Shown here: one piece after another, positions 26,824 to 58,745 of the stretch
Layout: the number at the start of each line of letters is the position of its first letter
Position numbering within the stretch: the first letter of the stretch is position 1
Source: Pseudobdellovibrionaceae bacterium
Lineage (GTDB): Bacteria > Bdellovibrionota > Bdellovibrionia > Bdellovibrionales > Bdellovibrionaceae
Assembly: GCA_022843825.1 (NCBI GenBank)
Contig: JALHMX010000012.1
Coordinates: 22,185-86,184, forward strand
DNA: 64,000 nt
Direction of reading: 5' to 3'
Position numbers and translations under genes: made by a program
The notes under the pieces: model-generated
Databases searched by the model: none
The model's input: the letters and a program-made list of their open reading frames with translations, nothing else
What the model was told of the DNA's origin: nothing

Positions 26824-27374
26824 GTGAGATTTTAATTCGTGTACAAGCTACGCCGAATCCTTGCGCTTGGAAATTTATTTTAGATCGTCCTGTTTTAAAT
26901 GAAGGCAAGGCTACATATTCTAGTATCGATGAAGCGGCTCACAATCCTTTGGCGAAATCTTTGTTTGAAATTCCTGGCGTGCGCCAAGTACATTACTTTC
27001 AAAATGTAATTACAGTAACGCATCAGTTTGATGTTGAGGAAGAGGCCATTAAAGCCGCCGCATGCGCGGTTATTCAAACTCGAATGCCTATTCATAATCC
27101 GAATCAAACCGTGTTTGATGAGAAAAAAATTGCTCGTGAAAATTTGTCACCAGAGCAACAAAAAATTGAAGAAATTCTAGATCGTACAATTCGTCCTGGT
27201 CTTCAAGGTGACGGCGGCGATATAGAAATCATAAAACTTGAAGATAATAAAGTTTATGTCATGTACCAAGGGGCGTGCGGCACTTGTCCAAGTTCCACCA
27301 CCGGCACTCTTATGGCCATCGAAGGCATCCTTAAAGACGAGTACGACCCTGCCATCGAAGTTATCCCGTTATAA
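26820..27374 (+). CDS. Nfu/NifU-like Fe-S scaffold or carrier protein
   Basis: Nfu_N-like N-domain plus a NifU C-domain with the CGTCPSS (CxxC) motif. Confidence 0.85.
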   Translation: MSEILIRVQATPNPCAWKFILDRPVLNEGKATYSSIDEAAHNPLAKSLFEIPGVRQVHYFQNVITVTHQFDVEEEAIKAAACAVIQTRMPIHNPNQTVFDEKKIARENLSPEQQKIEEILDRTIRPGLQGDGGDIEIIKLEDNKVYVMYQGACGTCPSSTTGTLMAIEGILKDEYDPAIEVIPL

Positions 27375-27375
27375 A

Positions 27376-28152
27376 GGTGCCAGGCTACTTTTCGGAACGC
27401 GGCGCATATTAATTATGCTGCTTCTGCTTTAATGAGTTATTAGCTGAGCATGGCTTTTGCCTTAGTAATCAGTATGCCTAGAGCCAATACAGTTTTGCAG
27501 TCAGATTATCCGTATAATATCAGTGCGCGGTGTATTAATCGCGACTGGTTTGCAATTCCTATCGAGAAAGTTTGGGAGATATTTTGTGAGGAGCTTACTA
27601 TAACTTGCGACAAATATAGTATGCAGATCCATAGCTTTGTTTTAATGAGTAATCACTTCCATTTGCTCGCTACAACTCCTAAATCCAACATTAGTGATTG
27701 TATGCAATACTTAATAGGTCGTACAAGTAAACGCATAACGAAATCCGCAAACCGAATTAATGAAACGTACGCTGGCCGATATTATAAGTGTATTTTACAT
27801 GAGCAGAGCTATTACTTGAATGCCTATAAGTATAACTATAGAAACCCTGTCACCGCAGGAATATGTAAAACAGTTCAGGACTACTCATTCAGTACACTGC
27901 CTATGGTAATCGGTATAAGAAAAAATCTAATACCCTTAGTTGAGGATCTTACGTACTACTGCAGTCCTCAAGAAACGTTGAATTGGTTGAATCAGAAACC
28001 TGATTCAACAAAAATAGAAGCTGCTCGCTATGGATTTAGGAGACAGTACTTTCAGTCAAAAAAATGCCTGAGAACAAAAAAATTTATTTTAGGGCCAAAC
28101 GACATATTGTAAGCTATTTGTTGCTATGCGTTCCGAAAAGTAGCCAGGCACC
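27376..28152 (+). mobile_element. RAYT gene bracketed by inverted REP-like arms
   Basis: GGTGCCAGGCTACTTTTCGGAACGC (27376-27400) and its reverse complement with one mismatch (28128-28152) flank the Y1-transposase-like gene. Confidence 0.8.
27450..28112 (+). CDS. REP-associated tyrosine transposase (RAYT; IS200/IS605 Y1 TnpA-like)
   Basis: HUH motif SNHFHLL and the catalytic-Tyr region YKYNYRNPVTAGI. The start may be ATG 27474 (MPRAN...). Confidence 0.85.
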   Translation: MAFALVISMPRANTVLQSDYPYNISARCINRDWFAIPIEKVWEIFCEELTITCDKYSMQIHSFVLMSNHFHLLATTPKSNISDCMQYLIGRTSKRITKSANRINETYAGRYYKCILHEQSYYLNAYKYNYRNPVTAGICKTVQDYSFSTLPMVIGIRKNLIPLVEDLTYYCSPQETLNWLNQKPDSTKIEAARYGFRRQYFQSKKCLRTKKFILGPNDIL

Positions 28153-28781
28153 TATTTAATAACTTTTTTTAAGTCGAATTTTTTAGAGCGTGATGATTGG
28201 GTTTCAACTTTTTGATTTGCGCGCCGTTGTTCTTGTTCGGCGGCATGAGCTTGCTGCACTACATACTCAAATGAGTCTTCTGGTCTGGACGATGATAAAA
28301 CTTCTTTATGAAGTTTGTGGCTATCAACAACACCATCGATCACAAAGCTAAGATATGTTTGAGCTGATTTGTTAAATCCATAGACAATTAATGGGATTTC
28401 AATTTGTTCGCCCTGCTTTAATTCCTTGAGGGTGCCATCTATATGTGAAGCAGATGCTGTTACAGATTCTCCTAATATCCACTTATACTGCAATCCAGCT
28501 GGTAAGTCCTTCTTGGCTGTAAGTACTGCTTTGACGATCGAGGTTTGATTTCCATCTTCAGAGATATGTTCATGCTTAATACGCACTTCAAAGTAGTCTT
28601 GATATATTTGATGCGCGGCTATTTTAGTGAGCGTGCGATTTTGGTTTATCGAAGCCGTTGTGCGAAGTGGATTGCCATATAAATCAGAATTTTGATTTAG
28701 AAATACATGAGTTACACCATAACCAGTGAAGACGCCAATGATGGTAATACCTAATAAATTTAAAATGAACTGCTTGGACAT
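28152..28781 (-). CDS. Small TM-anchored partner protein, copy 2 (paralog of 30795-31301)
   Basis: 209 aa with an N-terminal TM helix. The core LQYKWILGESV...GTLKELKQGEQIEI...SFEYVVQQ aligns with copy 1. It overlaps the upstream gene by 22 nt. Confidence 0.7.
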   Translation of the reverse strand: MSKQFILNLLGITIIGVFTGYGVTHVFLNQNSDLYGNPLRTTASINQNRTLTKIAAHQIYQDYFEVRIKHEHISEDGNQTSIVKAVLTAKKDLPAGLQYKWILGESVTASASHIDGTLKELKQGEQIEIPLIVYGFNKSAQTYLSFVIDGVVDSHKLHKEVLSSSRPEDSFEYVVQQAHAAEQEQRRANQKVETQSSRSKKFDLKKVIK

Positions 28782-30808
28782 AAGTAACCTCCACTTTGAT
28801 TTCTTAACGTATATGAATATGCCGTATTCCCTGCTATGAAGCCGGGAGTGTATGCGCGCACATTTAATAAATAGTTTGCTGAGCTTGACAGCCCAGAAAT
28901 GCTAGCGGCTTTTGGGTAAGCAGTAGCCCCGCCGGAAGTTCTGGTTGAAGACACGACATCAGATGAGATTCCGCGCGAGCACGTAGTGCCATTGCAGTCT
29001 TCATTATAAATAAAGTCTTCTAGAAAAATAAGTAGGTCGATAGGAACATTTGGAGTACCACCAAGATTATTCACATCTTGGAGAACGATGCTAGTTACGC
29101 CGGGTAAAGCTGTTTTATCGATTTGAAAATAATGATTGGAATAGCGCTGATCACTTTTGTCTTGGTAGTTGTTTACACGCGGCAGGATTCTAAAGGTACA
29201 AGCACTGCCACTGGGAATTAATTTTATAGCATAGGCTGGCCATGTTAAATCTCCACCAACAGTAAAGTCTGCATCGTCATATAAATGTAAGGCTTCATCG
29301 GAGGTCAGCATGTTGTTAATATTTACTGAAAGTGATCCGGCTTTGACGGCTTTAAAGCGCTCTAGCCAGCGCACAGAACTGCGGAAGGGATAAATACTTT
29401 GTCCAAGGCCAAGGCCAAACTTATCGAAGGATCTCCATAAATCACTAAAATTGTCTTCGTTTACACAATTTGCAAATGGAGCTAAACAGGTATTTGTTGC
29501 TTTAAATAGTCCTCGGGAAATGGACACCTCACGAAAATGACTTTCTCCTGGATGCATAGCAGGGCTTACCGGATCAAAGCTGTAGGCCCCGCTTCCTGCT
29601 GATGTATGTAAAGTTTCAGTTGTGCTGTTGCCTGGACGAGCCAAATTAAAGCGGATGTATTCGTAGCCACTGGCAGTGTGTCCTTCAGAGTCAAAGTAGT
29701 AAAGCCATTCTCCATTAGGCAAATCTGCTTGTAAGTCAGGATTAATATCATCAATTTTGTTTTTAATGATATGGGCGCTAAAATAATTTCCCCAAGCTTC
29801 AGACCAAGCCAGTCGAGCATCAATACGCATGTTTCCGTTATGTGGCCCGCCCGGAGAATCCATACCACTACAAACATTTTCTATATGATGGCCAAGCTCA
29901 TGAATAATTACCGAATCATCAAAATGGTCTGTGTCGACTGTCGATACATTCCCCAAAATACCGCCGTTAATGTAAAGCTCATTGTCGCCTCGAAGATAAA
30001 ATGAAATTGTTCCCAGAGAACCCGGGTCCACTGAAGGATAGATATACTGATTAGGATTAAAACCTGCTTTCCAGAAAGCGCTTACTTTGGTGTTTAAGCA
30101 TGTCAAATCTTGAGTTCCAGTGTTGTTCGCTAGATAGTCATAAGTAGTTATAATATTATTATAGATATTAAATGCGCCGCCCTCGATCTTTGGAGAAATA
30201 TTTTCTAGTGCTGTTGCGCTCATGGCAATTGGATATGATCCAGTGCCAGTAGTATTTATAGTAGTAGAAATGCGATGTACATTTTCAGAACAAATTTCTT
30301 CTTTTACGCTGACAAGTGCATTGAATGCAGGTTTTCCCCCAGGCACACTCATTGTATGATTTGATCGGGCTAAAACTTCAACTTGATAAGTTCCCGCTGT
30401 GTCAGGTATTTGCAGATCCCCTGTTCCGTTTAAAGCCTTAAGCTGTCCGGTCCCATTGGTTTTTCCGCACTGAATAACTTGTCCAGCGGAGTTGAGTACA
30501 CGAATTTCAGCAAAGCGAATCGGTAAGTTTGATGAAATAGGATTAGATAAAGTTAAACGCTCTACCACACCGGCATTTTCACTGACGACAAGGCCTCGTT
30601 TTGAAAAAGTCGCTGATCCAATGATAATCGTACTTCCAGTGTAAGCGGTACTTACAGAGCAAAGAGGATCTTCTAATTTTTGGACTGAACATAAGCCATT
30701 GCCACCATTACTGCTGACAGCTTCAGATTCTGCAGGTTTACAGCCTGCTGCAAAAGCAAAAACTGCAAGAGCTAAAATAGATTTAAGTAAAATTTTATTT
30801 ATCAGCAT
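28760..30808 (-). CDS. Lipoprotein, putative secreted zinc metallopeptidase (HExxH gluzincin-like), copy 2
   Basis: Lipobox FAAGC, HELGH at 29888-29902 (residues 303-307) and a downstream LAWSEAWGNYF motif. Full-length paralog of 31292-33388. Confidence 0.7.
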   Translation of the reverse strand: MLINKILLKSILALAVFAFAAGCKPAESEAVSSNGGNGLCSVQKLEDPLCSVSTAYTGSTIIIGSATFSKRGLVVSENAGVVERLTLSNPISSNLPIRFAEIRVLNSAGQVIQCGKTNGTGQLKALNGTGDLQIPDTAGTYQVEVLARSNHTMSVPGGKPAFNALVSVKEEICSENVHRISTTINTTGTGSYPIAMSATALENISPKIEGGAFNIYNNIITTYDYLANNTGTQDLTCLNTKVSAFWKAGFNPNQYIYPSVDPGSLGTISFYLRGDNELYINGGILGNVSTVDTDHFDDSVIIHELGHHIENVCSGMDSPGGPHNGNMRIDARLAWSEAWGNYFSAHIIKNKIDDINPDLQADLPNGEWLYYFDSEGHTASGYEYIRFNLARPGNSTTETLHTSAGSGAYSFDPVSPAMHPGESHFREVSISRGLFKATNTCLAPFANCVNEDNFSDLWRSFDKFGLGLGQSIYPFRSSVRWLERFKAVKAGSLSVNINNMLTSDEALHLYDDADFTVGGDLTWPAYAIKLIPSGSACTFRILPRVNNYQDKSDQRYSNHYFQIDKTALPGVTSIVLQDVNNLGGTPNVPIDLLIFLEDFIYNEDCNGTTCSRGISSDVVSSTRTSGGATAYPKAASISGLSSSANYLLNVRAYTPGFIAGNTAYSYTLRNQSGGYLCPSSSF

Positions 30809-31301
30809 GAATTTTTTCTACTTCCTGAACAATGGATTCAAATGATGATTCTTGATGAGAGGATACAATGCCGTCAGAAAAGATTCGCTTAGCCGGGTCT
30901 GTTCCAAAAACTTCGAACCGAACGAATCGATTTTCATGAGCATTAAAATTTTTAACTTTAATAATCACTTCGGCCACTTCACCTTTTTGCAAAGAATCAA
31001 TGGTTCCAGCTAAAGATCCTTGAACGAGTGAGACGTTTGAGCCCAATTTCCATCGATATTGAAATGGCGAATTGTAGTTATAGGGAACTTGTACCGAAGC
31101 TTTAATAATACTTATCGCCTCTTTTTTAAATGAGAGTTTAAGATCAATCTCACGTGCGGCTTGTCCGATGTAGCTGTATTTAGTTCTCTGTAAAGTCGAC
31201 ATACCGTGCGACTCTAAATTCTTTGACGCAGAGTCAGTGCGAGATGTGCAGCCAACACTCATAAAAAACAAAATAATAATTAATTTATGGGTTAAGGACA
31301 T
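30795..31301 (-). CDS. Small lipoprotein partner protein, copy 1 (paralog of 28152-28781)
   Basis: 168 aa with lipobox MSVGC. The core FQYRWKLGSNV...GTIDSLQKGEVAEV...SFESIVQE is shared with copy 2. It overlaps both neighbouring genes. Confidence 0.7.
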   Translation of the reverse strand: MSLTHKLIIILFFMSVGCTSRTDSASKNLESHGMSTLQRTKYSYIGQAAREIDLKLSFKKEAISIIKASVQVPYNYNSPFQYRWKLGSNVSLVQGSLAGTIDSLQKGEVAEVIIKVKNFNAHENRFVRFEVFGTDPAKRIFSDGIVSSHQESSFESIVQEVEKIHADK

Positions 31302-33388
31302 AGAACCCCCAAGTTGCTGTTTATGACATAGGTATAATTAGTGTTGCTGCCAATAGTTAAGCCCGCAGTCCATGCACGTAGATCTAATAAATATTTTTGG
31401 GACTGATCTATGCCGGCTAATGAAATCGCTTTAGTGTATGGGGTACTTAATGTAGTCGCCGGTGTGCGATTCATTACGAAAACATCTGCGTTGGCACTAT
31501 TGCGGTTGGGTTGAAATGAAGTACAGGTTCCATTGGTGAAGGTTAAGCAAGTGTAGTCATCATTAAAAAAGTAACCAGGCTTGAAGAGAAGAATATCGTG
31601 ATCAGTATTTGTCCCCGCATTTTTAGTAAACTCAACTGATATCTGAGTGAGCCCAGGTAGTAAATTGAAATCAATAGTATAAAAATGATTTGAGTATCGC
31701 GGATCAGAGGCACTGTTATTAAGTGCGCCATCAGATTTGGGCTGAATTCTTAAATCACACGCAGAACCCGTAACAAGACTATTGCCATAACCGGGCCAAA
31801 CCAATGGCGATACTCCGAAAGTTCCTTCTGAAACTAAGTGTAGTGCTTCGGCTTCAGTCACGGCTTTTCGGGTAACAGTACCGACAGCCCACGATCCAGA
31901 TATTGTTTTTAGTTTTTCTAGAAATTTATCAGAGGCGATAAAAGGATTCTGATCAGAAGCTACTCCGGTAAGCCGATCAAACGACTTCCATAAGTCTTCA
32001 AAGCTGACTAGGGTGTCAGTGCATAGTGGCCCGCAGGCGTTAGCAATTTTAAAAAGTCCCCGGGATATAGCTCCCTCACGGGTGTGTCCCTCCCCCGGAA
32101 AAGAGGTTGGATTTACGCGATCAAATTCTTGTCCTGTGTAGGGCGCAAACTGATAGGCACCCGGATTGGTACCGGATCTTTTAAGATCAATCACGAAGCC
32201 ATCACCATTGCCGATATTTTGAACCGAATCAGAAAAGCCATAGGAATTAAAAAAATAGGTCCATCCAAAATTAGTGGGATTATTTTCTGTCAGCACTGAT
32301 AGCTTTTGTGTTAATGAAAAATCTAGATCACTTAACTTATTTTGAATAACCTGCGCGGCAAGAAAATTAGCCCAGCCTTCAGACCATGCAAGTCGCGGAT
32401 CAATTCGCGTAATTAGTGTATGATTTCCACCTGGAGATACCCACTGACCGCATTGATCTTCAATAAAGTGAGCGAATTCGTGGATGATAGCAAAGTCGTC
32501 ATAATGATCAGTGTTGGATAGGCTTACATCTCCCAGTTGGCCACCAGTGATAAATAATTCTTTAGTCGAGGAAACATAGTATGATGTATTGCCGAGGGTT
32601 TGCGGATCTGCGCTGGGGTATTGGTATTGTACTGGATTAAAACCTGCTTTCCAGTATACGTTTACTTTTTCTGATAAACATTTGGTATCTACGGCTCCGG
32701 TATTATTTTTTATATATTCATAAGCCGTTTGCAAAGAGTTAAGAATATTAAAAGCGCCGCCCTCAATAGTTTCGGATTCTGTTTGCCGCGCATGAGCTAC
32801 TAAACCAACAGCTACTGTAGATGTATTTGTAACACTAAAGTTGGCGATTAAAGTATGAGGCTCATTGCGGTATTTGTCTTTTTTTACCGAAATAAAAGTG
32901 TAATCAGTAGGATCTCCGTTATTAATTATATAAGACCTAGAAGTAACTCTGACTTTGTAGCTTCCAGGCGAATTAGGAATTGTTAAGGTAGAAAGACCAT
33001 CCAGCGCCTTAATGTTGCCGCTAGCATCGGTACGACCGCACTGTACTTTTTGATTTGCAGAATTGTAAACCGTAACTTCCGCAAACCTGATCGGTAGCGG
33101 AGTCGGCAAGGGGTCTCCAAGTGACATGGTTTTAAGTTTTATGTTTGGAGCCGGAGGTTCAGTAGTACCGACATTTTCAGTCGTGATATCTATGGTTCTT
33201 TTTTCAAAGTGTGCAGTTCCGATAAGGCTTACGGCATCGGCATAAACAGTTTCGGTATCACACAACACCTCTTCAACTAATACTGAAGCGTAATCATCTA
33301 TGCGGGAAGAAAAAGAGAGACCGCAACTTGTTGAAAACAAGCTGAAAACGAAAATATAAAAAACATTGCGAACGAACCCTATATTCAC
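31292..33388 (-). CDS. Lipoprotein, putative secreted zinc metallopeptidase (HExxH gluzincin-like), copy 1
   Basis: Signal peptide with a lipobox-like FSTSC, HEFAH at 32468-32482 (residues 303-307) and a LAWSEGWANFL motif. GTG start. Confidence 0.7.
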   Translation of the reverse strand: MNIGFVRNVFYIFVFSLFSTSCGLSFSSRIDDYASVLVEEVLCDTETVYADAVSLIGTAHFEKRTIDITTENVGTTEPPAPNIKLKTMSLGDPLPTPLPIRFAEVTVYNSANQKVQCGRTDASGNIKALDGLSTLTIPNSPGSYKVRVTSRSYIINNGDPTDYTFISVKKDKYRNEPHTLIANFSVTNTSTVAVGLVAHARQTESETIEGGAFNILNSLQTAYEYIKNNTGAVDTKCLSEKVNVYWKAGFNPVQYQYPSADPQTLGNTSYYVSSTKELFITGGQLGDVSLSNTDHYDDFAIIHEFAHFIEDQCGQWVSPGGNHTLITRIDPRLAWSEGWANFLAAQVIQNKLSDLDFSLTQKLSVLTENNPTNFGWTYFFNSYGFSDSVQNIGNGDGFVIDLKRSGTNPGAYQFAPYTGQEFDRVNPTSFPGEGHTREGAISRGLFKIANACGPLCTDTLVSFEDLWKSFDRLTGVASDQNPFIASDKFLEKLKTISGSWAVGTVTRKAVTEAEALHLVSEGTFGVSPLVWPGYGNSLVTGSACDLRIQPKSDGALNNSASDPRYSNHFYTIDFNLLPGLTQISVEFTKNAGTNTDHDILLFKPGYFFNDDYTCLTFTNGTCTSFQPNRNSANADVFVMNRTPATTLSTPYTKAISLAGIDQSQKYLLDLRAWTAGLTIGSNTNYTYVINSNLGVLCP

Positions 33389-33774
33389 TAGTATTTTTTC
33401 GGATTTTGGAGAGTGATGCTACAGTCTAGGAGATGGAATTTAAAAATTTAAAATCTTGTTTTGATACAGAAATTTTGTGACTCAAAATAAGTCGTTGAAA
33501 GGACAAATAAAAAAGGCTCGAAGACAACTCTGAAAGATAAACCTCTGTATGCAAGGTGGGTGACCATTATAACGACTTTAGGCTTCTCACTACTGGGTGA
33601 GCTTGCACACCATCGTCAGGGACAGTCCCCTAATGTATGCTTGTAAGGTTTATTTTCGATGAGTTTTACGTCAGCGAACCCTAATAAATATATTATATAA
33701 TAGTTTCTTAAAAAGCCATACAGGAAAACAGTTTCAGGACTCATGTTTATAGAAAAGATATCCGATTATTTGGC

Positions 33775-33981
33775 ATGATTTTTAAATTAGATTATTATTT
33801 TCCATTTTTAGTATTTTTTTATGGTCTAGTGATATTATTTGTGCTTGAAATTCCGTATCTCGTATCCTTAGCTAAAAAAGAGATGCCTAATCAGCTTATG
33901 GCCTTTGAGCGTCACAGAAAAATTGCACTTGTATCTGTCATAATTGGCGGCCTGTGGTCGTTACAAAATATCTGGTTATAA
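33775..33981 (+). CDS. Small two-TM membrane protein (hypothetical)
   Basis: 68 aa with two hydrophobic helices. Coding status rests only on ORF and hydrophobicity. Confidence 0.4.
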   Translation: MIFKLDYYFPFLVFFYGLVILFVLEIPYLVSLAKKEMPNQLMAFERHRKIALVSVIIGGLWSLQNIWL

Positions 33982-35369: not shown

Positions 35370-35379
35370 GGAAAGTAGT

Positions 35380-35601
35380 ATGGATTTTGAGAAAAAACTT
35401 AATCGGCTAGAAGAGATTGTTCATAAAATGGAAAAAGGCGAGATGGCTTTGGATGAGTCCTTAAAATTATTTGAAGAGGGCGTCAAACTTTCGCGGGATT
35501 GTCACAAGCAGTTAACGCAAGCGGAAGCTCAAGTAAAAAAATTAGTGGGTTTCGATGCAGAAGGAAAAGCCATTACTGAAAATTTTAGAGTCGAGGAATA
35601 G
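35380..35601 (+). CDS. xseB: Exodeoxyribonuclease VII small subunit
   Basis: 73 aa; FEKKLNRLEEIV...LDESLKLFEEG is typical of XseB. Confidence 0.9.
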   Translation: MDFEKKLNRLEEIVHKMEKGEMALDESLKLFEEGVKLSRDCHKQLTQAEAQVKKLVGFDAEGKAITENFRVEE

Positions 35602-35603
35602 TC

Positions 35604-36467
35604 ATGAGACTGGCGTTGGTTGTTTCATTATTTTTTGTGGCCTTAACGTCGTGTAAAACAGTGCCGCGAAAAAGCAGTCCAACTTCGCCCGGACCTACTC
35701 GGTTTGAGGAACCACAGGAAGGTCCAGAGCCTGTTATTAGTCAGCAGATAGATACTAAGCCTGAAAAATTTGGACTTTTATTTTCAGGCGGAGGCGTTAG
35801 GACTTGGTCCTATATTACTATCTTGAAGGAAATGCAAAAATACAAAATGCCTATCGTTGCCGCTGCAGGTGTTGAGTGGGGCGCTATTGTGGCTGGTGTT
35901 TTTGCGCAAAACGTTTCTGCTAATGAAGTGGAGTGGGAACTTTCAAAATTTAAGCGTGCGGATGAATGGCTCGATTATATAAAAAAGTCACTTGAGAAAA
36001 AATCTATAGCTAAAGCTAAAATACCTTTTGCGTGTGCCTCGCTAAATCTTAGAAATCAAACTTCATATATACTTAACAAGGGCCAACTAGATGCTTTAAT
36101 ACCATTGTGTTTGCCCGCCTTAGGTGTAATTAAACCCCATAGCCAAAGTGTAGCGTCGATGGGTGACATGACTAGCTTAGTTCAGTTTTTAAAAAATACT
36201 GGTGCCACGAAAATTATTTTAATAAATGCAATTTCACCGCGATCAGGAAAGCCTCATGGCAGCGGCGTGGAGTCTGCAGAAAATCAACTGTGGATTCAGT
36301 CGGCCTCAGCACTCAATAAAAAAGCAGCGGGCGTCGATGAGATTATTGAGATTGATTTAGCCAACATACCCGTTGAAAGATTTGACCTCCGGCGCTCAGT
36401 AATGAATGCCTCAGTCCCACTGGCCAAAGACCAGCTTAAGCGAATCGCAAACAAGTACGGTTTTTAA
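35604..36467 (+). CDS. Patatin-like lipoprotein with degenerate catalytic motifs
   Basis: Lipobox LTSC and oxyanion motif SGGGVRT. The nucleophile elbow reads G-V-E-W-G (35868-35882) instead of G-x-S-x-G, and no DGG motif is visible. Confidence 0.6.
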   Translation: MRLALVVSLFFVALTSCKTVPRKSSPTSPGPTRFEEPQEGPEPVISQQIDTKPEKFGLLFSGGGVRTWSYITILKEMQKYKMPIVAAAGVEWGAIVAGVFAQNVSANEVEWELSKFKRADEWLDYIKKSLEKKSIAKAKIPFACASLNLRNQTSYILNKGQLDALIPLCLPALGVIKPHSQSVASMGDMTSLVQFLKNTGATKIILINAISPRSGKPHGSGVESAENQLWIQSASALNKKAAGVDEIIEIDLANIPVERFDLRRSVMNASVPLAKDQLKRIANKYGF

Positions 36468-56994: not shown

Positions 56995-57053
56995 AAGGTG
57001 CCAGGCTACTTTTCGTAATGCAGTGCCTAACGAAAAGTAGCCTGGCACCTTTT
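56993..57053. repeat. REP doublet / perfect hairpin between convergent stop codons
   Basis: AAAAGGTGCCAGGCTACTTTTCG - 15-nt loop - CGAAAAGTAGCCTGGCACCTTTT, a perfect 23-bp stem. The arms are identical to the RAYT-flanking arms. Confidence 0.85.
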
Positions 57054-58333: not shown

Positions 58334-58728
58334 GCATGGTTTTGCGGGTAATCGCTGCGTCTACGTTTTACGTCGACGGAGAGGAAAGTCCGAGCTTCAT
58401 AGAGCAACGTCTGGGGTAACGCCCCTCTACCGTAAGGTAAGGAACAGTGGAACAGAAAGAATGTCCGGGGTTATGATCTGATTGTCGGGAACGGGAGACT
58501 TTCAGGGAATCGCCGGAGTGAAAACAGCTAAACTCGACGTGAAGCAAGATCAAATAGGGAAACGTTGTCATCTTAGGATGGCATAACAGTGGGCTCGCTG
58601 GTGGTTTCCGGGTTAGATCGCTTGAGCCTTTAAGTAATTAAAGGCCTAGAGGAATGATTACCGAAGTGTGATAGTAAATGTGGGAACGCACACACGGAAC
58701 AGAACTCGGCTTACAGCAAAACCATCCC
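58334..58728 (+). ncRNA. rnpB: RNase P RNA, bacterial type A
   Basis: Universally conserved blocks GAGGAAAGTCCGAGCTTCATAG, GGTAACGCC, AGCAAGATCAAATAGGGAAAC, CGCTTGAGCC and ACAGAACTCGGCTTAC. P1 pairs ATGGTTTTGC (58336-58345) with GCAAAACCAT (58716-58725). The ends are approximate. Confidence 0.93.
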
Positions 58729-58745
58729 ATCTTTTTCAAAAAAAT

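What the first reader, a model, noticed from the sequence alone, without database searches (positions are those of the whole stretch)
28152..33388. Tandemly duplicated two-gene cassette: HExxH lipoprotein plus small membrane-anchored partner, translationally coupled
Four minus-strand genes form big1 (31292-33388, 698 aa), small1 (30795-31301, 168 aa), big2 (28760-30808, 682 aa) and small2 (28152-28781, 209 aa).

Seen directly:
- big1 and big2 align over their whole length, and small1 and small2 align over their cores, so the unit of duplication is the pair.
- Every junction overlaps (10, 14 and 22 nt), which argues for co-translation.
- Both large proteins carry lipoprotein-type signals.
- Both share an N-terminal beta-sandwich-like block (IRFAE[IV]xVxNSAxQxxQCG).
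- Both have HExxH at exactly residue 303-307, followed about 30 residues later by LAWSE[AG]W[GA]N[YF].
- Both have a C-terminal domain that resembles pre-peptidase C-terminal domains.

From memory, the SE[AG]W motif resembles the third-zinc-ligand motif of thermolysin/fungalysin-type gluzincins (NEAFSD / GEGWGD).

Inference: this is a secreted or surface metalloprotease with a dedicated partner, which could be a trans-acting inhibitor or immunity protein, a chaperone or an anchor. I do not recognise the small protein family at all. The block sits next to a RAYT/REP element and ends a long intergenic leader, so it looks accessory.
Basis: partly seen in the sequence, partly recalled or inferred. 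Interest (0 to 1): 0.8.

Follow-up and report, generated by a model that had tools for sequence, protein, structure and literature searches.

The report
Duplicated thermolysin-fold lipoprotein protease with partner
Predatory Bdellovibrio-type bacteria carry, at a fixed chromosomal spot next to the 6S RNA gene, an uncatalogued zinc protease with a thermolysin-like fold that is lipid-anchored and always encoded together with a small membrane-anchored partner of unknown family; here the pair is duplicated.

Summary

No Pfam, NCBIfam or PDB sequence search places either family. A confident AlphaFold model of big1 (pLDDT 86.8) matches aureolysin and thermolysin by fold (Foldseek prob 1.0). H303, E304, H307, E310, H323, E337 and the lipobox Cys22 are invariant in 99 homologs. 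The large proteins are therefore probably active gluzincin lipoproteins of a new family.

The small protein has an N-terminal anchor, an Ig-like β-sandwich and a conserved acidic/aromatic motif. A partner gene follows every large gene wherever the contig extends, in about 70 Bdellovibrionota loci.

More distant genomes have a single pair. The trees of the large and small proteins mirror each other, so the pair duplicated as a unit.

The locus is core and syntenic (xseA–6S RNA–cassette–nifU–sufS), not accessory. The "long leader" is the 6S RNA gene. The RAYT is an insertion seen only in this genome.

What the partner does is inferred, not shown; I favour a cognate latency or self-protection factor.

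The parts
31292..33388 (-). big1: 698-aa lipoprotein (lipobox Cys22). Domains: N-terminal bMG3/transthyretin-like beta domain (about residues 52-198), thermolysin-fold catalytic domain (about 205-515), C-terminal jelly-roll (534-697).
   Evidence: ORF. AlphaFold model with pLDDT 86.8 and pTM 0.88. Foldseek hits to aureolysin and thermolysin. bMG3 weak in 21 of 32 members.
32468..32482 (-). big1 codons for HEFAH (residues 303-307), on the predicted active-site helix 298-314. E310 follows.
   Evidence: H303, E304, H307 and E310 are invariant in 99 of 99 homologs. hhalign places H303/E304/H307 on thermolysin H142/E143/H146.
32378..32380 (-). big1 codon for E337 within LAWSEGWAN, on the next helix (331-350). 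Candidate third zinc ligand.
   Evidence: W335 and E337 are invariant in 99 of 99 homologs. Helix assignment. The ligand role is inferred from gluzincin architecture.
30795..31301 (-). small1: 168-aa partner. Features: lipobox (MSVGC), disordered linker, 8-strand Ig-like beta-sandwich (residues 53-147), C-terminal helix carrying the SSxQExSFE motif.
28760..30808 (-). big2: 682-aa paralog of big1 (40% identity). Lipobox FAAGC, HELGH at residues 303-307 (nt 29888-29902), LAWSEAWGN.
28152..28781 (-). small2: 209-aa partner. Features: uncleaved N-terminal TM anchor, [NH]RxxAS-type linker motif, beta-sandwich, SSRPEDSFEY motif and a basic C-terminal tail.
31292..31301 (-). big1/small1 junction. The small1 ATG lies inside the Leu-Cys-Pro codons at the end of big1 (CTA TGT CCT TAA). 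A GGGGG Shine-Dalgarno lies 6 nt upstream.
   Evidence: Overlaps of 10, 13 or 16 nt in 36 of 36 four-gene loci.
28760..28781 (-). big2/small2 junction. The small2 ATG again lies inside big2's Leu-Cys codons (TTA TGT). A GGAGG lies 7 nt upstream.
   Evidence: Overlap of 22 nt in 29 of 36 loci and 19 nt in 4.
33418..33430 (-). Conserved CCTAGACTGTAGC element about 30 nt upstream of the conserved GTG start of big1. Possibly the cassette's own promoter or 5'UTR element.
   Evidence: Alignment of 7 loci. Function not tested.
33509..33685 (-). 6S RNA (ssrS) gene, a conserved co-oriented upstream neighbour of the cassette. It ends in a conserved T-tract.
   Evidence: Rfam RF00013 at 66.7 bits vs gathering score 46.4. 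Present in the same position in 18 of 19 related loci. T-tract.

Best explanation
Each large gene encodes a Sec-exported, lipid-anchored zinc endopeptidase. Its catalytic core has the thermolysin (clan MA gluzincin) fold. The proposed chemistry is zinc held by H303, H307 and E337, with E304 as the general base.

The catalytic core is flanked by an N-terminal macroglobulin/transthyretin-like beta domain and a C-terminal PPC/collagen-binding-like jelly-roll. It lacks the covalent FTP/PepSY propeptide of classical thermolysins.

Each small gene is translated in tight coupling with the large gene before it. Its product is anchored at the periplasmic face of the membrane, by a TM helix or in some clades by a lipid. 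I propose that it binds its cognate protease 1:1 through the Ig-like sandwich and the conserved acidic/aromatic motif (SSRPEDSFEY). On this view it keeps the enzyme latent or harmless to the producer's own envelope until the protease is sorted onward, so it acts as a trans-acting latency or self-protection factor.

An ancestral single pair was duplicated as a unit in the Pseudobdellovibrio/'B. qaytius' lineage. That gave two cognate pairs, both catalytically intact.

What is shown: gene structure, paralogy, fold, invariant residues, lipobox, anchors, strict co-occurrence and synteny.

What is inferred: zinc-ligand roles, physical binding and the inhibitory role of the partner.
For: - Fold: the big1 model has pLDDT 86.8. 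Its top Foldseek PDB hits are aureolysin, thermolysin and gentlyase, at E 9e-6 to 4e-5, prob 1.0, TM(target) 0.53-0.58.
- Catalytic residues: H303, E304, H307, E310, H323, W335, E337, R437, E438, R443 and K447 are invariant in 99 of 99 full-length homologs covering both paralogs and the single-copy forms. HExxH and E337 lie on consecutive helices.
- Export: Cys22 is invariant, -1 is G/S/A and +2 is never Asp. Many conserved Cys suggest disulfides.
- Partner: every small protein has an N-terminal hydrophobic anchor. The model shows a beta-sandwich followed by a helix.
- Co-occurrence: a partner gene follows the large gene in all loci with enough downstream sequence, including the HMM-negative but positionally equivalent L064.
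- Coupling: the overlaps keep a conserved phase, with the small ATG inside the large protein's LCP codons and an internal Shine-Dalgarno.
- Duplication as a unit: the large and small trees mirror each other.
- Evolutionary rate: the small proteins evolve faster than the large ones (36-38% vs 49-50% mean identity), and their divergence tracks that of the large proteins (r = 0.84).
- No FTP/PepSY propeptide is detected.
- Precedents for protease or enzyme plus a co-encoded protective partner: potempins (PMC9890683), emfourin/protealysin (PMC9505478) and Bdellovibrio Bd3459/Bd3460 (PMC4686830).
Against: - No sequence-level link to any peptidase family. Pfam and NCBIfam give nothing above cut-off. 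The PDB profile search is empty. hhalign against thermolysin aligns only the HExxH helix, at prob 1.5%.
- Foldseek TM normalised to the query is low (0.28), because only one of three domains matches.
- The partner's fold is a generic Ig-like sandwich (GAE, MSP, CsgC, DsbD-alpha). It resembles no known protease inhibitor, so the fold does not support inhibition in particular.
- No complex model or biochemistry was available.
- If the lipoprotein is moved to the outer membrane while a TM-anchored partner stays in the inner membrane, any complex must be transient. That fits a foldase equally well.
- The correlation between large and small divergence is expected from shared phylogeny alone.
Confidence: 0.5

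Rival explanations
1. The small protein is a membrane-anchored steric chaperone, in effect a trans-propeptide. It would be needed to fold the propeptide-less thermolysin-fold domain in the periplasm and then release it. This is analogous to the lipase-specific foldase LipH/Lif, which is encoded downstream of its lipase.
For: - The large protein lacks FTP/PepSY, although thermolysin-type enzymes normally need a propeptide chaperone (established knowledge of family M4).
- The partner has an N-terminal TM anchor, lies downstream and is translationally coupled, as with LipA-LipH (PMC13381987).
- A +2 residue that is never Asp suggests the protease moves on to the outer membrane, away from an inner-membrane partner (this uses the E. 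coli sorting rule, so it is an inference).
Against: - Lif foldases are all-helical, whereas this partner is a small beta-sandwich.
- No Lipase_chap or other chaperone family matches.
- In some clades small1 is itself a lipoprotein that could travel with the protease.
Confidence: 0.22
2. The small protein is a stable structural subunit, acting as an anchor, adaptor or substrate-recruiting module. It would position the protease at the membrane or select substrates, without inhibiting or folding it.
For: - Strict 1:1 genetic coupling.
- The Ig-like sandwich is a typical protein-binding module.
- Adaptor lipoproteins for periplasmic proteases are known, for example NlpI-Prc and LbcA-CtpA (from general knowledge, not checked here).
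Against: - The protease has its own lipid anchor and two accessory binding domains, so an extra anchor seems redundant.
- The partner evolves faster than the enzyme, which is more typical of cognate inhibitors or immunity proteins.
Confidence: 0.15
3. The large proteins are not peptidases. They would be a thermolysin-like scaffold used for binding or for another hydrolytic chemistry, and the neighbouring small genes would have no physical relation to them.
For: - No sequence-based family assignment was possible.
- Function was never tested.
Against: - The complete HExxH...E set, plus further charged residues, is invariant across 99 sequences down to about 30% identity. That argues for retained catalysis.
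- Conserved overlapping junctions and mirrored phylogenies argue against chance adjacency.
Confidence: 0.06

Closest known systems
Thermolysin family (MEROPS M4: thermolysin, aureolysin, gentlyase/bacillolysin)
   Same: - Two-lobed catalytic fold (Foldseek prob 1.0).
- HExxH on the active-site helix, and a Glu on the following helix.
- Secreted enzymes that often carry C-terminal PPC-type domains.
   Different: - No detectable sequence homology.
- The Glu lies 30 residues after the second His, in WSEGWxN instead of NExxSD.
- No FTP/PepSY propeptide.
- Lipid-anchored.
- An extra N-terminal MG/transthyretin-like domain.
- An obligatory separate partner gene.
Fungalysin family (M36)
   Same: - An EGW-type motif around the third-ligand Glu (GEGWSD from memory, compared with SEGWAN here).
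- One sub-threshold Pfam hit of big2 residues 294-369 to Peptidase_M36, E 0.014.
   Different: - The hit is below the curated cut-off and occurs in only 1 of 32 members.
- No M36 structure appears among the top Foldseek hits.
KLIKK-peptidase/potempin system of Tannerella forsythia (PMC9890683)
   Same: - Secreted peptidases, each genetically paired and co-transcribed with a small membrane-anchored protein specific for it.
- Several paralogous pairs in one genome.
- A self-protection rationale.
   Different: - Potempins are encoded upstream of the peptidase, are outer-membrane lipoproteins, and have OB-fold or 8-stranded up-and-down barrels.
- Here the partner is downstream, is mostly TM-anchored, and has an Ig-like sandwich.
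- Inhibition is not shown here.
Protealysin-emfourin (pln-m4in) operon of Serratia proteamaculans (PMC9505478)
   Same: A thermolysin-type protease followed in the same operon by a small cognate protein that binds the active site 1:1.
   Different: - The paper describes protealysin as an intracellular metalloprotease and its M4 type is my recollection; its operon partner emfourin is an inhibitor.
- The pair here is exported and membrane-anchored.
- No sequence relation to the partner was found.
Lipase LipA and its membrane-anchored foldase LipH/Lif (PMC13381987)
   Same: An exported hydrolase whose downstream gene encodes an N-terminally membrane-anchored periplasmic partner required for maturation.
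   Different: - Lif is helical and acts on lipases.
- No homology to the partner here.
Bdellovibrio Bd3459 DD-endopeptidase / Bd3460 self-protection protein (PMC4686830)
   Same: A predator enzyme with a self-protection protein that shields the producer from it.
   Different: - A different enzyme class.
- An ankyrin-repeat protector.
- No homology to either protein here.

Membership tests
Clan MA(E) gluzincin metallopeptidases | HExxH motif on an active-site helix | tested here: met
   H303, E304 and H307 are invariant in 99 of 99 homologs and lie on predicted helix 298-314.
Clan MA(E) gluzincin metallopeptidases | Third zinc ligand is a Glu on the next helix, 18-72 residues downstream | tested here: inconclusive
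   Invariant E337 lies 30 residues after H307 on helix 331-350, so the position fits. Zinc ligation itself cannot be shown without model coordinates or an experiment.
Thermolysin family M4 (Pfam Peptidase_M4 / Peptidase_M4_C) | Significant match to the family HMMs or to thermolysin sequence | tested here: not met
   No M4 hit even at E <= 1 in 32 members. The PDB profile search is empty. hhalign vs 1KEI gives prob 1.5%.
Thermolysin family M4 | Thermolysin-like two-lobed fold | tested here: met
   Foldseek: 7skl_A, 1kei, 1bqb and 4ger at E 9e-6 to 4e-5, prob 1.0, TM(target) 0.53-0.58.
Thermolysin family M4 | N-terminal FTP/PepSY propeptide | tested here: not met
   No FTP or PepSY Pfam hit. The N-terminal region is modelled as Ig/MG-like beta domains.
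Fungalysin family M36 (PF02128) | Match at or above the Pfam gathering score | tested here: not met
   big2 scores 15.0 bits against a cut-off of 23.3. Only 1 of 32 members hits.
Bacterial lipoproteins | Signal peptide ending in a lipobox with an invariant Cys | tested here: met
   Cys22 is present in 99 of 99 homologs, -1 is G/S/A, and -3 is mostly L/I/F. Lipidation itself was not tested.
PPC / collagen-binding domain (PF04151) | Pfam match, or a jelly-roll fold like the ColG/ColH collagen-binding domains | tested here: inconclusive
   There is a fold match to 1nqj (prob 0.99, TM target 0.58) and 3jqw (prob 0.98), but no Pfam PPC hit.
Potempin-type lipoprotein peptidase inhibitors | OB-fold or 8-stranded up-and-down beta-barrel that inhibits the adjacent peptidase | tested here: not met
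   The partner model is an Ig-like sandwich plus a helix, and the top 50 Foldseek hits contain no potempin. Inhibition cannot be tested with these tools.
Lipase-specific foldase (Lif) | Helical Lipase_chap domain | tested here: not met
   No such Pfam hit in 42 members, and the model is a beta-sandwich.
6S RNA (RF00013), the upstream neighbour | Covariance-model score at or above the gathering threshold | tested here: met
   66.7 bits vs 46.4, full-length match. 62-76 bits in 18 related loci.

The most novel reading that the evidence does not exclude
The small protein founds a new class of membrane-anchored, trans-acting latency or immunity factors. In this reading it replaces the covalent propeptide of thermolysin-type enzymes by plugging the active site with its conserved SSRPEDSFEY segment, in a Glu/Asp-switch-like manner. 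The protease/partner module would be a phylum-wide core component of the Bdellovibrionota envelope or predation machinery, with expression tied to the adjacent 6S RNA locus (attack-phase/stationary-type regulation).
Probability: 0.25. Interest if true: 0.72.

Novelty: new variant of a known kind. Interest (0 to 1): 0.55.

Why it matters
Bdellovibrio-like predators are studied as sources of prey-degrading enzymes and of the self-protection strategies that go with them. This locus has four features of interest:

- It defines a protease family that current profile libraries miss entirely. The family is recognisable only by fold.
- The family is conserved, with an intact active site, across all the Bdellovibrionota loci recovered here.
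- It never occurs without a fast-evolving membrane-anchored partner of unknown family.
- It is propeptide-less, so it offers a clear test case for how a thermolysin-fold enzyme is folded and kept harmless.

The two cognate pairs in one operon allow specificity-swap experiments. If the partner proves to be an inhibitor, it would add a new inhibitor fold for thermolysin-type proteases. If it proves to be a foldase, it would be a new kind of trans-propeptide.

Tried and rejected
- **Sequence-based assignment.** Pfam and NCBIfam on all four proteins and on 32 and 42 family members gave only sub-threshold noise. The one recurrent signal was bMG3 in the N-terminal domain. PDB profile searches with both families found nothing. 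hhalign of the large family against verified thermolysin aligned only the HExxH helix.
- **Fold of the small protein.** It gave only generic Ig-like sandwiches, so the fold does not discriminate between inhibitor, chaperone and anchor.
- **Exhaustive profile search with the small family.** It found 283 representatives at 50% clustering, almost all standalone proteins of 150-235 aa. Three giant repeat proteins among the hits (for example from a Ligilactobacillus plasmid) match only a 50-residue segment many times. I rejected them as composition or repeat artefacts.
- **Source assembly.** Looking it up through the 100%-identical protein P0001 failed.
- **'Accessory island' idea.** Rejected because of conserved synteny.
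- **'Long leader/riboswitch' idea.** Rejected because the stretch is the 6S RNA gene. The remaining 120-nt gap shows no stable structure (z = 0.41).
- **Co-transcription with 6S RNA.** Considered, but left open. 6S ends in a conserved T-tract, and a conserved element precedes the start of big1.
- **Promoter and terminator scans.** They were at or below shuffle expectation.
- **Inter-protein covariation.** Not attempted. About 95 phylogenetically structured pairs are too few for a meaningful result.
- **Literature.** I found no paper on this family. The Bdellovibrio proteome paper concerns an unrelated protease, Bd2269, which I recall to be a serine protease.

Full report
**Observation**

The ORF table reproduces the four minus-strand genes exactly:
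- big1, 31292-33388, 698 aa, GTG start
- small1, 30795-31301, 168 aa
- big2, 28760-30808, 682 aa
- small2, 28152-28781, 209 aa

From these coordinates the junction overlaps are 10, 14 and 22 nt. big1 and big2 align end to end at 40% identity over 679 aa (E 6e-147). small1 and small2 align over their cores at 30% over 97 aa (E 3e-14). The quoted motifs are all at the stated residues.

**What sequence libraries say**

- No Pfam-A or NCBIfam model reaches its cut-off on any of the four proteins.
- Scanning 32 diverse large-family members singly gives one recurrent weak signal. It is the bacterial alpha-2-macroglobulin MG3 domain in the N-terminal region (21 of 32 members, best E 4e-5). No peptidase family recurs, and Peptidase_M36 hits only big2 at E 0.014.
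- Forty-two small-family members give nothing coherent.
- Profile searches of both families against all PDB sequences are empty.
- Sources call the proteins 'hypothetical', apart from one automatic 'M48 family' label.

**Structure**

An AlphaFold2 model of big1, built on a 32-sequence alignment, is confident (mean pLDDT 86.8, pTM 0.88). It has these parts:
- beta domains at about residues 52-198
- a long helix at 210-229
- a helix at 298-314 carrying HEFAH and E310
- the next helix at 331-350 carrying W335-S-E337-G-W339
- a helical lobe extending to about residue 513
- a beta jelly-roll at 534-697

Foldseek against the PDB returns aureolysin, thermolysin and gentlyase as the top six hits (E 9e-6 to 4e-5, prob 1.0, TM normalised to the target 0.53-0.58). 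Lower hits match collagenase collagen-binding domains and the Tk-SP C-domain for the C-terminal jelly-roll, and transthyretin for the N-terminal domain.

I checked a thermolysin sequence I recalled from memory against PDB 1KEI; it matched at 315 of 316 positions. I then compared the PDB version with the family profile. Only the HExxH helix aligns (H303=H142, E304=E143, H307=H146, E310=D150), at 1.5% probability. The relationship to thermolysin is therefore visible at fold level only. This is not a member of M4 or M36 by sequence criteria. It is best described as a new gluzincin family with a thermolysin-type core.

**Conservation**

I built HMMs of both families and searched the six-frame ORFs of 74 related loci. 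Ninety-nine full-length large proteins were aligned.
- C22, F213, H303, E304, H307, E310, H323, W335, E337, R437, E438, R443 and K447 are invariant in all 99. No copy of either paralog has lost the catalytic set.
- The lipobox has G/S/A at -1. Position +2 is G/S/T and never Asp.

**The partner**

- Every small protein begins with a hydrophobic anchor. In small1 of the window's clade, and in some others, it ends in a lipobox Cys. In small2 and in all single-pair genomes it is an uncleaved TM helix.
- The small1 model has pLDDT 79.1 overall and above 90 in the core. It shows a disordered linker, an eight-strand beta-sandwich (53-147) and a C-terminal helix.
- Foldseek finds only generic Ig-like sandwiches: GAE/adaptin ear, MSP, CsgC, DsbD-alpha and a FixG-related protein.
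- The best conserved segments lie outside or at the edge of the sandwich. They are a [NH]RxxAS motif in the linker, YxWxLG in a strand, and SSRPEDSFEY (SSxQExSFE in small1) directly after the sandwich. small2-type proteins also carry a basic C-terminal tail.
- An exhaustive profile search finds 283 representatives at 50% clustering. Almost all are standalone proteins of 150-235 aa.

**Co-occurrence and history**

- In every locus with enough downstream sequence, the large gene is followed by a small gene. The single HMM-negative case, L064, has a 251-aa TM-anchored, beta-rich ORF in the same position.
- About 40 genomes labelled Pseudobdellovibrio, 'Bdellovibrio sp. qaytius' or Pseudobdellovibrionaceae have the four-gene form.
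- Fourteen more distant genomes (29-34% identity) have a single pair.
- Neighbour-joining trees give big1 and big2 clades as sisters with the single-pair proteins outside. The small proteins give the same topology. The pair therefore duplicated as a unit.
- Small proteins diverge faster than large ones (mean 36-38% vs 49-50% identity).
- Junction overlaps keep one phase: 10, 13 or 16 nt for big1 to small1; 22 or 19 nt for big2 to small2; and 16 or 19 nt in single pairs.
- In the window, both small ATGs lie inside the Leu-Cys codons of the large protein's conserved C-terminal LCP motif, with GGGGG or GGAGG 6-7 nt upstream. This dual coding explains why small proteins start with MS or MP. It also shows that the coupling predates the duplication.

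**Context**

- The cassette sits in a fixed slot. Upstream and divergent lie xseA and a 68-aa membrane ORF. Downstream and convergent lie nifU and sufS. This holds in distant single-pair genomes too, so the locus is core and not accessory.
- The supposed long leader contains a 6S RNA gene (33509-33685, minus strand, 66.7 bits vs gathering 46.4).
- That 6S gene is co-oriented and immediately upstream of the large gene in 10 of 10 close loci and 8 of 9 distant loci.
- It ends in a conserved T-tract. A conserved CCTAGACTGTAGC element precedes the conserved GTG start of big1. Co-transcription with 6S is therefore possible but not shown, and the adjacency may simply reflect block synteny.
- The RAYT is real: Y1_Tnp at E 4.5e-10, flanked by 32-nt inverted repeats at 27369-27400 and 28128-28159. 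It is found in none of the other loci, so it is an insertion between small2 and nifU.

**Mechanism**

The best-supported reading has two parts. The large proteins are an envelope lipoprotein zinc endopeptidase with a thermolysin-type core and no covalent propeptide. Each is made together with a cognate, membrane-anchored partner that binds it and controls it.

I favour a latency or self-protection role for the partner, for four reasons:
- Paralog-specific pairs are retained.
- The partner evolves fast.
- The most conserved segment is an acidic/aromatic linear motif suited to a metalloprotease cleft.
- There are precedents: potempins (PMC9890683), emfourin (PMC9505478) and Bdellovibrio's own Bd3460 (PMC4686830).

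A Lif-like foldase or trans-propeptide role (PMC13381987) is a serious rival, because the enzyme lacks a propeptide and probably leaves the inner membrane. A plain anchor or adaptor role is a third option. None of these could be discriminated with the tools available. No complex prediction could be run, and the partner's fold is uninformative.

**Verdict**

The finding is real. The protease call is right at fold level. The 'accessory island' and 'leader' readings are wrong. The partner's function remains open. This is a new family-level variant of a known kind of system, namely a secreted gluzincin with a co-encoded cognate partner. It is of moderate interest, mainly to researchers working on predatory bacteria and on peptidases.

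Noticed in passing
window 33509-33685 (-); also L001, L002, L004, L006, L007, L012, L020, L025, L039, L047, L061, L062, L064-L067, L069 and L070, just upstream of the large gene: A 6S RNA (ssrS) gene lies about 120 nt upstream of big1 on the same strand. The adjacency is conserved in 18 of 19 related loci, including genomes where the protease is only about 30% identical. 6S ends in a conserved T-tract. Whether the cassette is read through from ssrS is unknown.
   Followed up: partly
window 27369-28159 (+): A RAYT-type Y1 transposase gene (27450-28112, Pfam Y1_Tnp E 4.5e-10) is flanked by 32-nt inverted repeats (27369-27400 and 28128-28159, 91% complementary). The right arm overlaps the small2 stop codon. 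The gene is absent from this position in all related loci, so it is a lineage-specific insertion.
   Followed up: yes
window 56997-57021 (-): A third copy of the REP-like repeat that flanks the RAYT (3 mismatches in 25 nt; none expected by chance).
   Followed up: no
window 33775-33981 (+): A 68-aa hydrophobic ORF (MIFKLDYYFPFLVFFYGLVILFVLEIPYL...) lies upstream of xseA. It is conserved by tblastn in nearly all related loci (43-85% identity) and has no Pfam family.
   Followed up: partly
window 33389-33430 (-): big1 starts at a GTG that is invariant in 7 aligned loci and has no Shine-Dalgarno. It is preceded by conserved CCGAAxAAAT and, about 30 nt upstream, CCTAGACTGTAGC. This may be a non-canonical promoter or leader.
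   Followed up: partly
window 58336-58729 (+): Bacterial RNase P RNA class A (220.6 bits).
   Followed up: no
window 35370-36467 (+) compared with L001 1275-4050: In the window, xseA is followed closely by a patatin-like phospholipase gene. In L001/L002 an ispA-type polyprenyl synthase and a TlyA/FtsJ methyltransferase lie between xseB and the patatin gene, so there is a local rearrangement or loss.
   Followed up: no
L064 7858-8613: In this single-pair genome the partner is longer (251 aa), does not overlap the protease gene and escapes the family HMM. It keeps the TM anchor and the beta-rich core, and has an acidic Ser/Asp-rich tail.
   Followed up: partly
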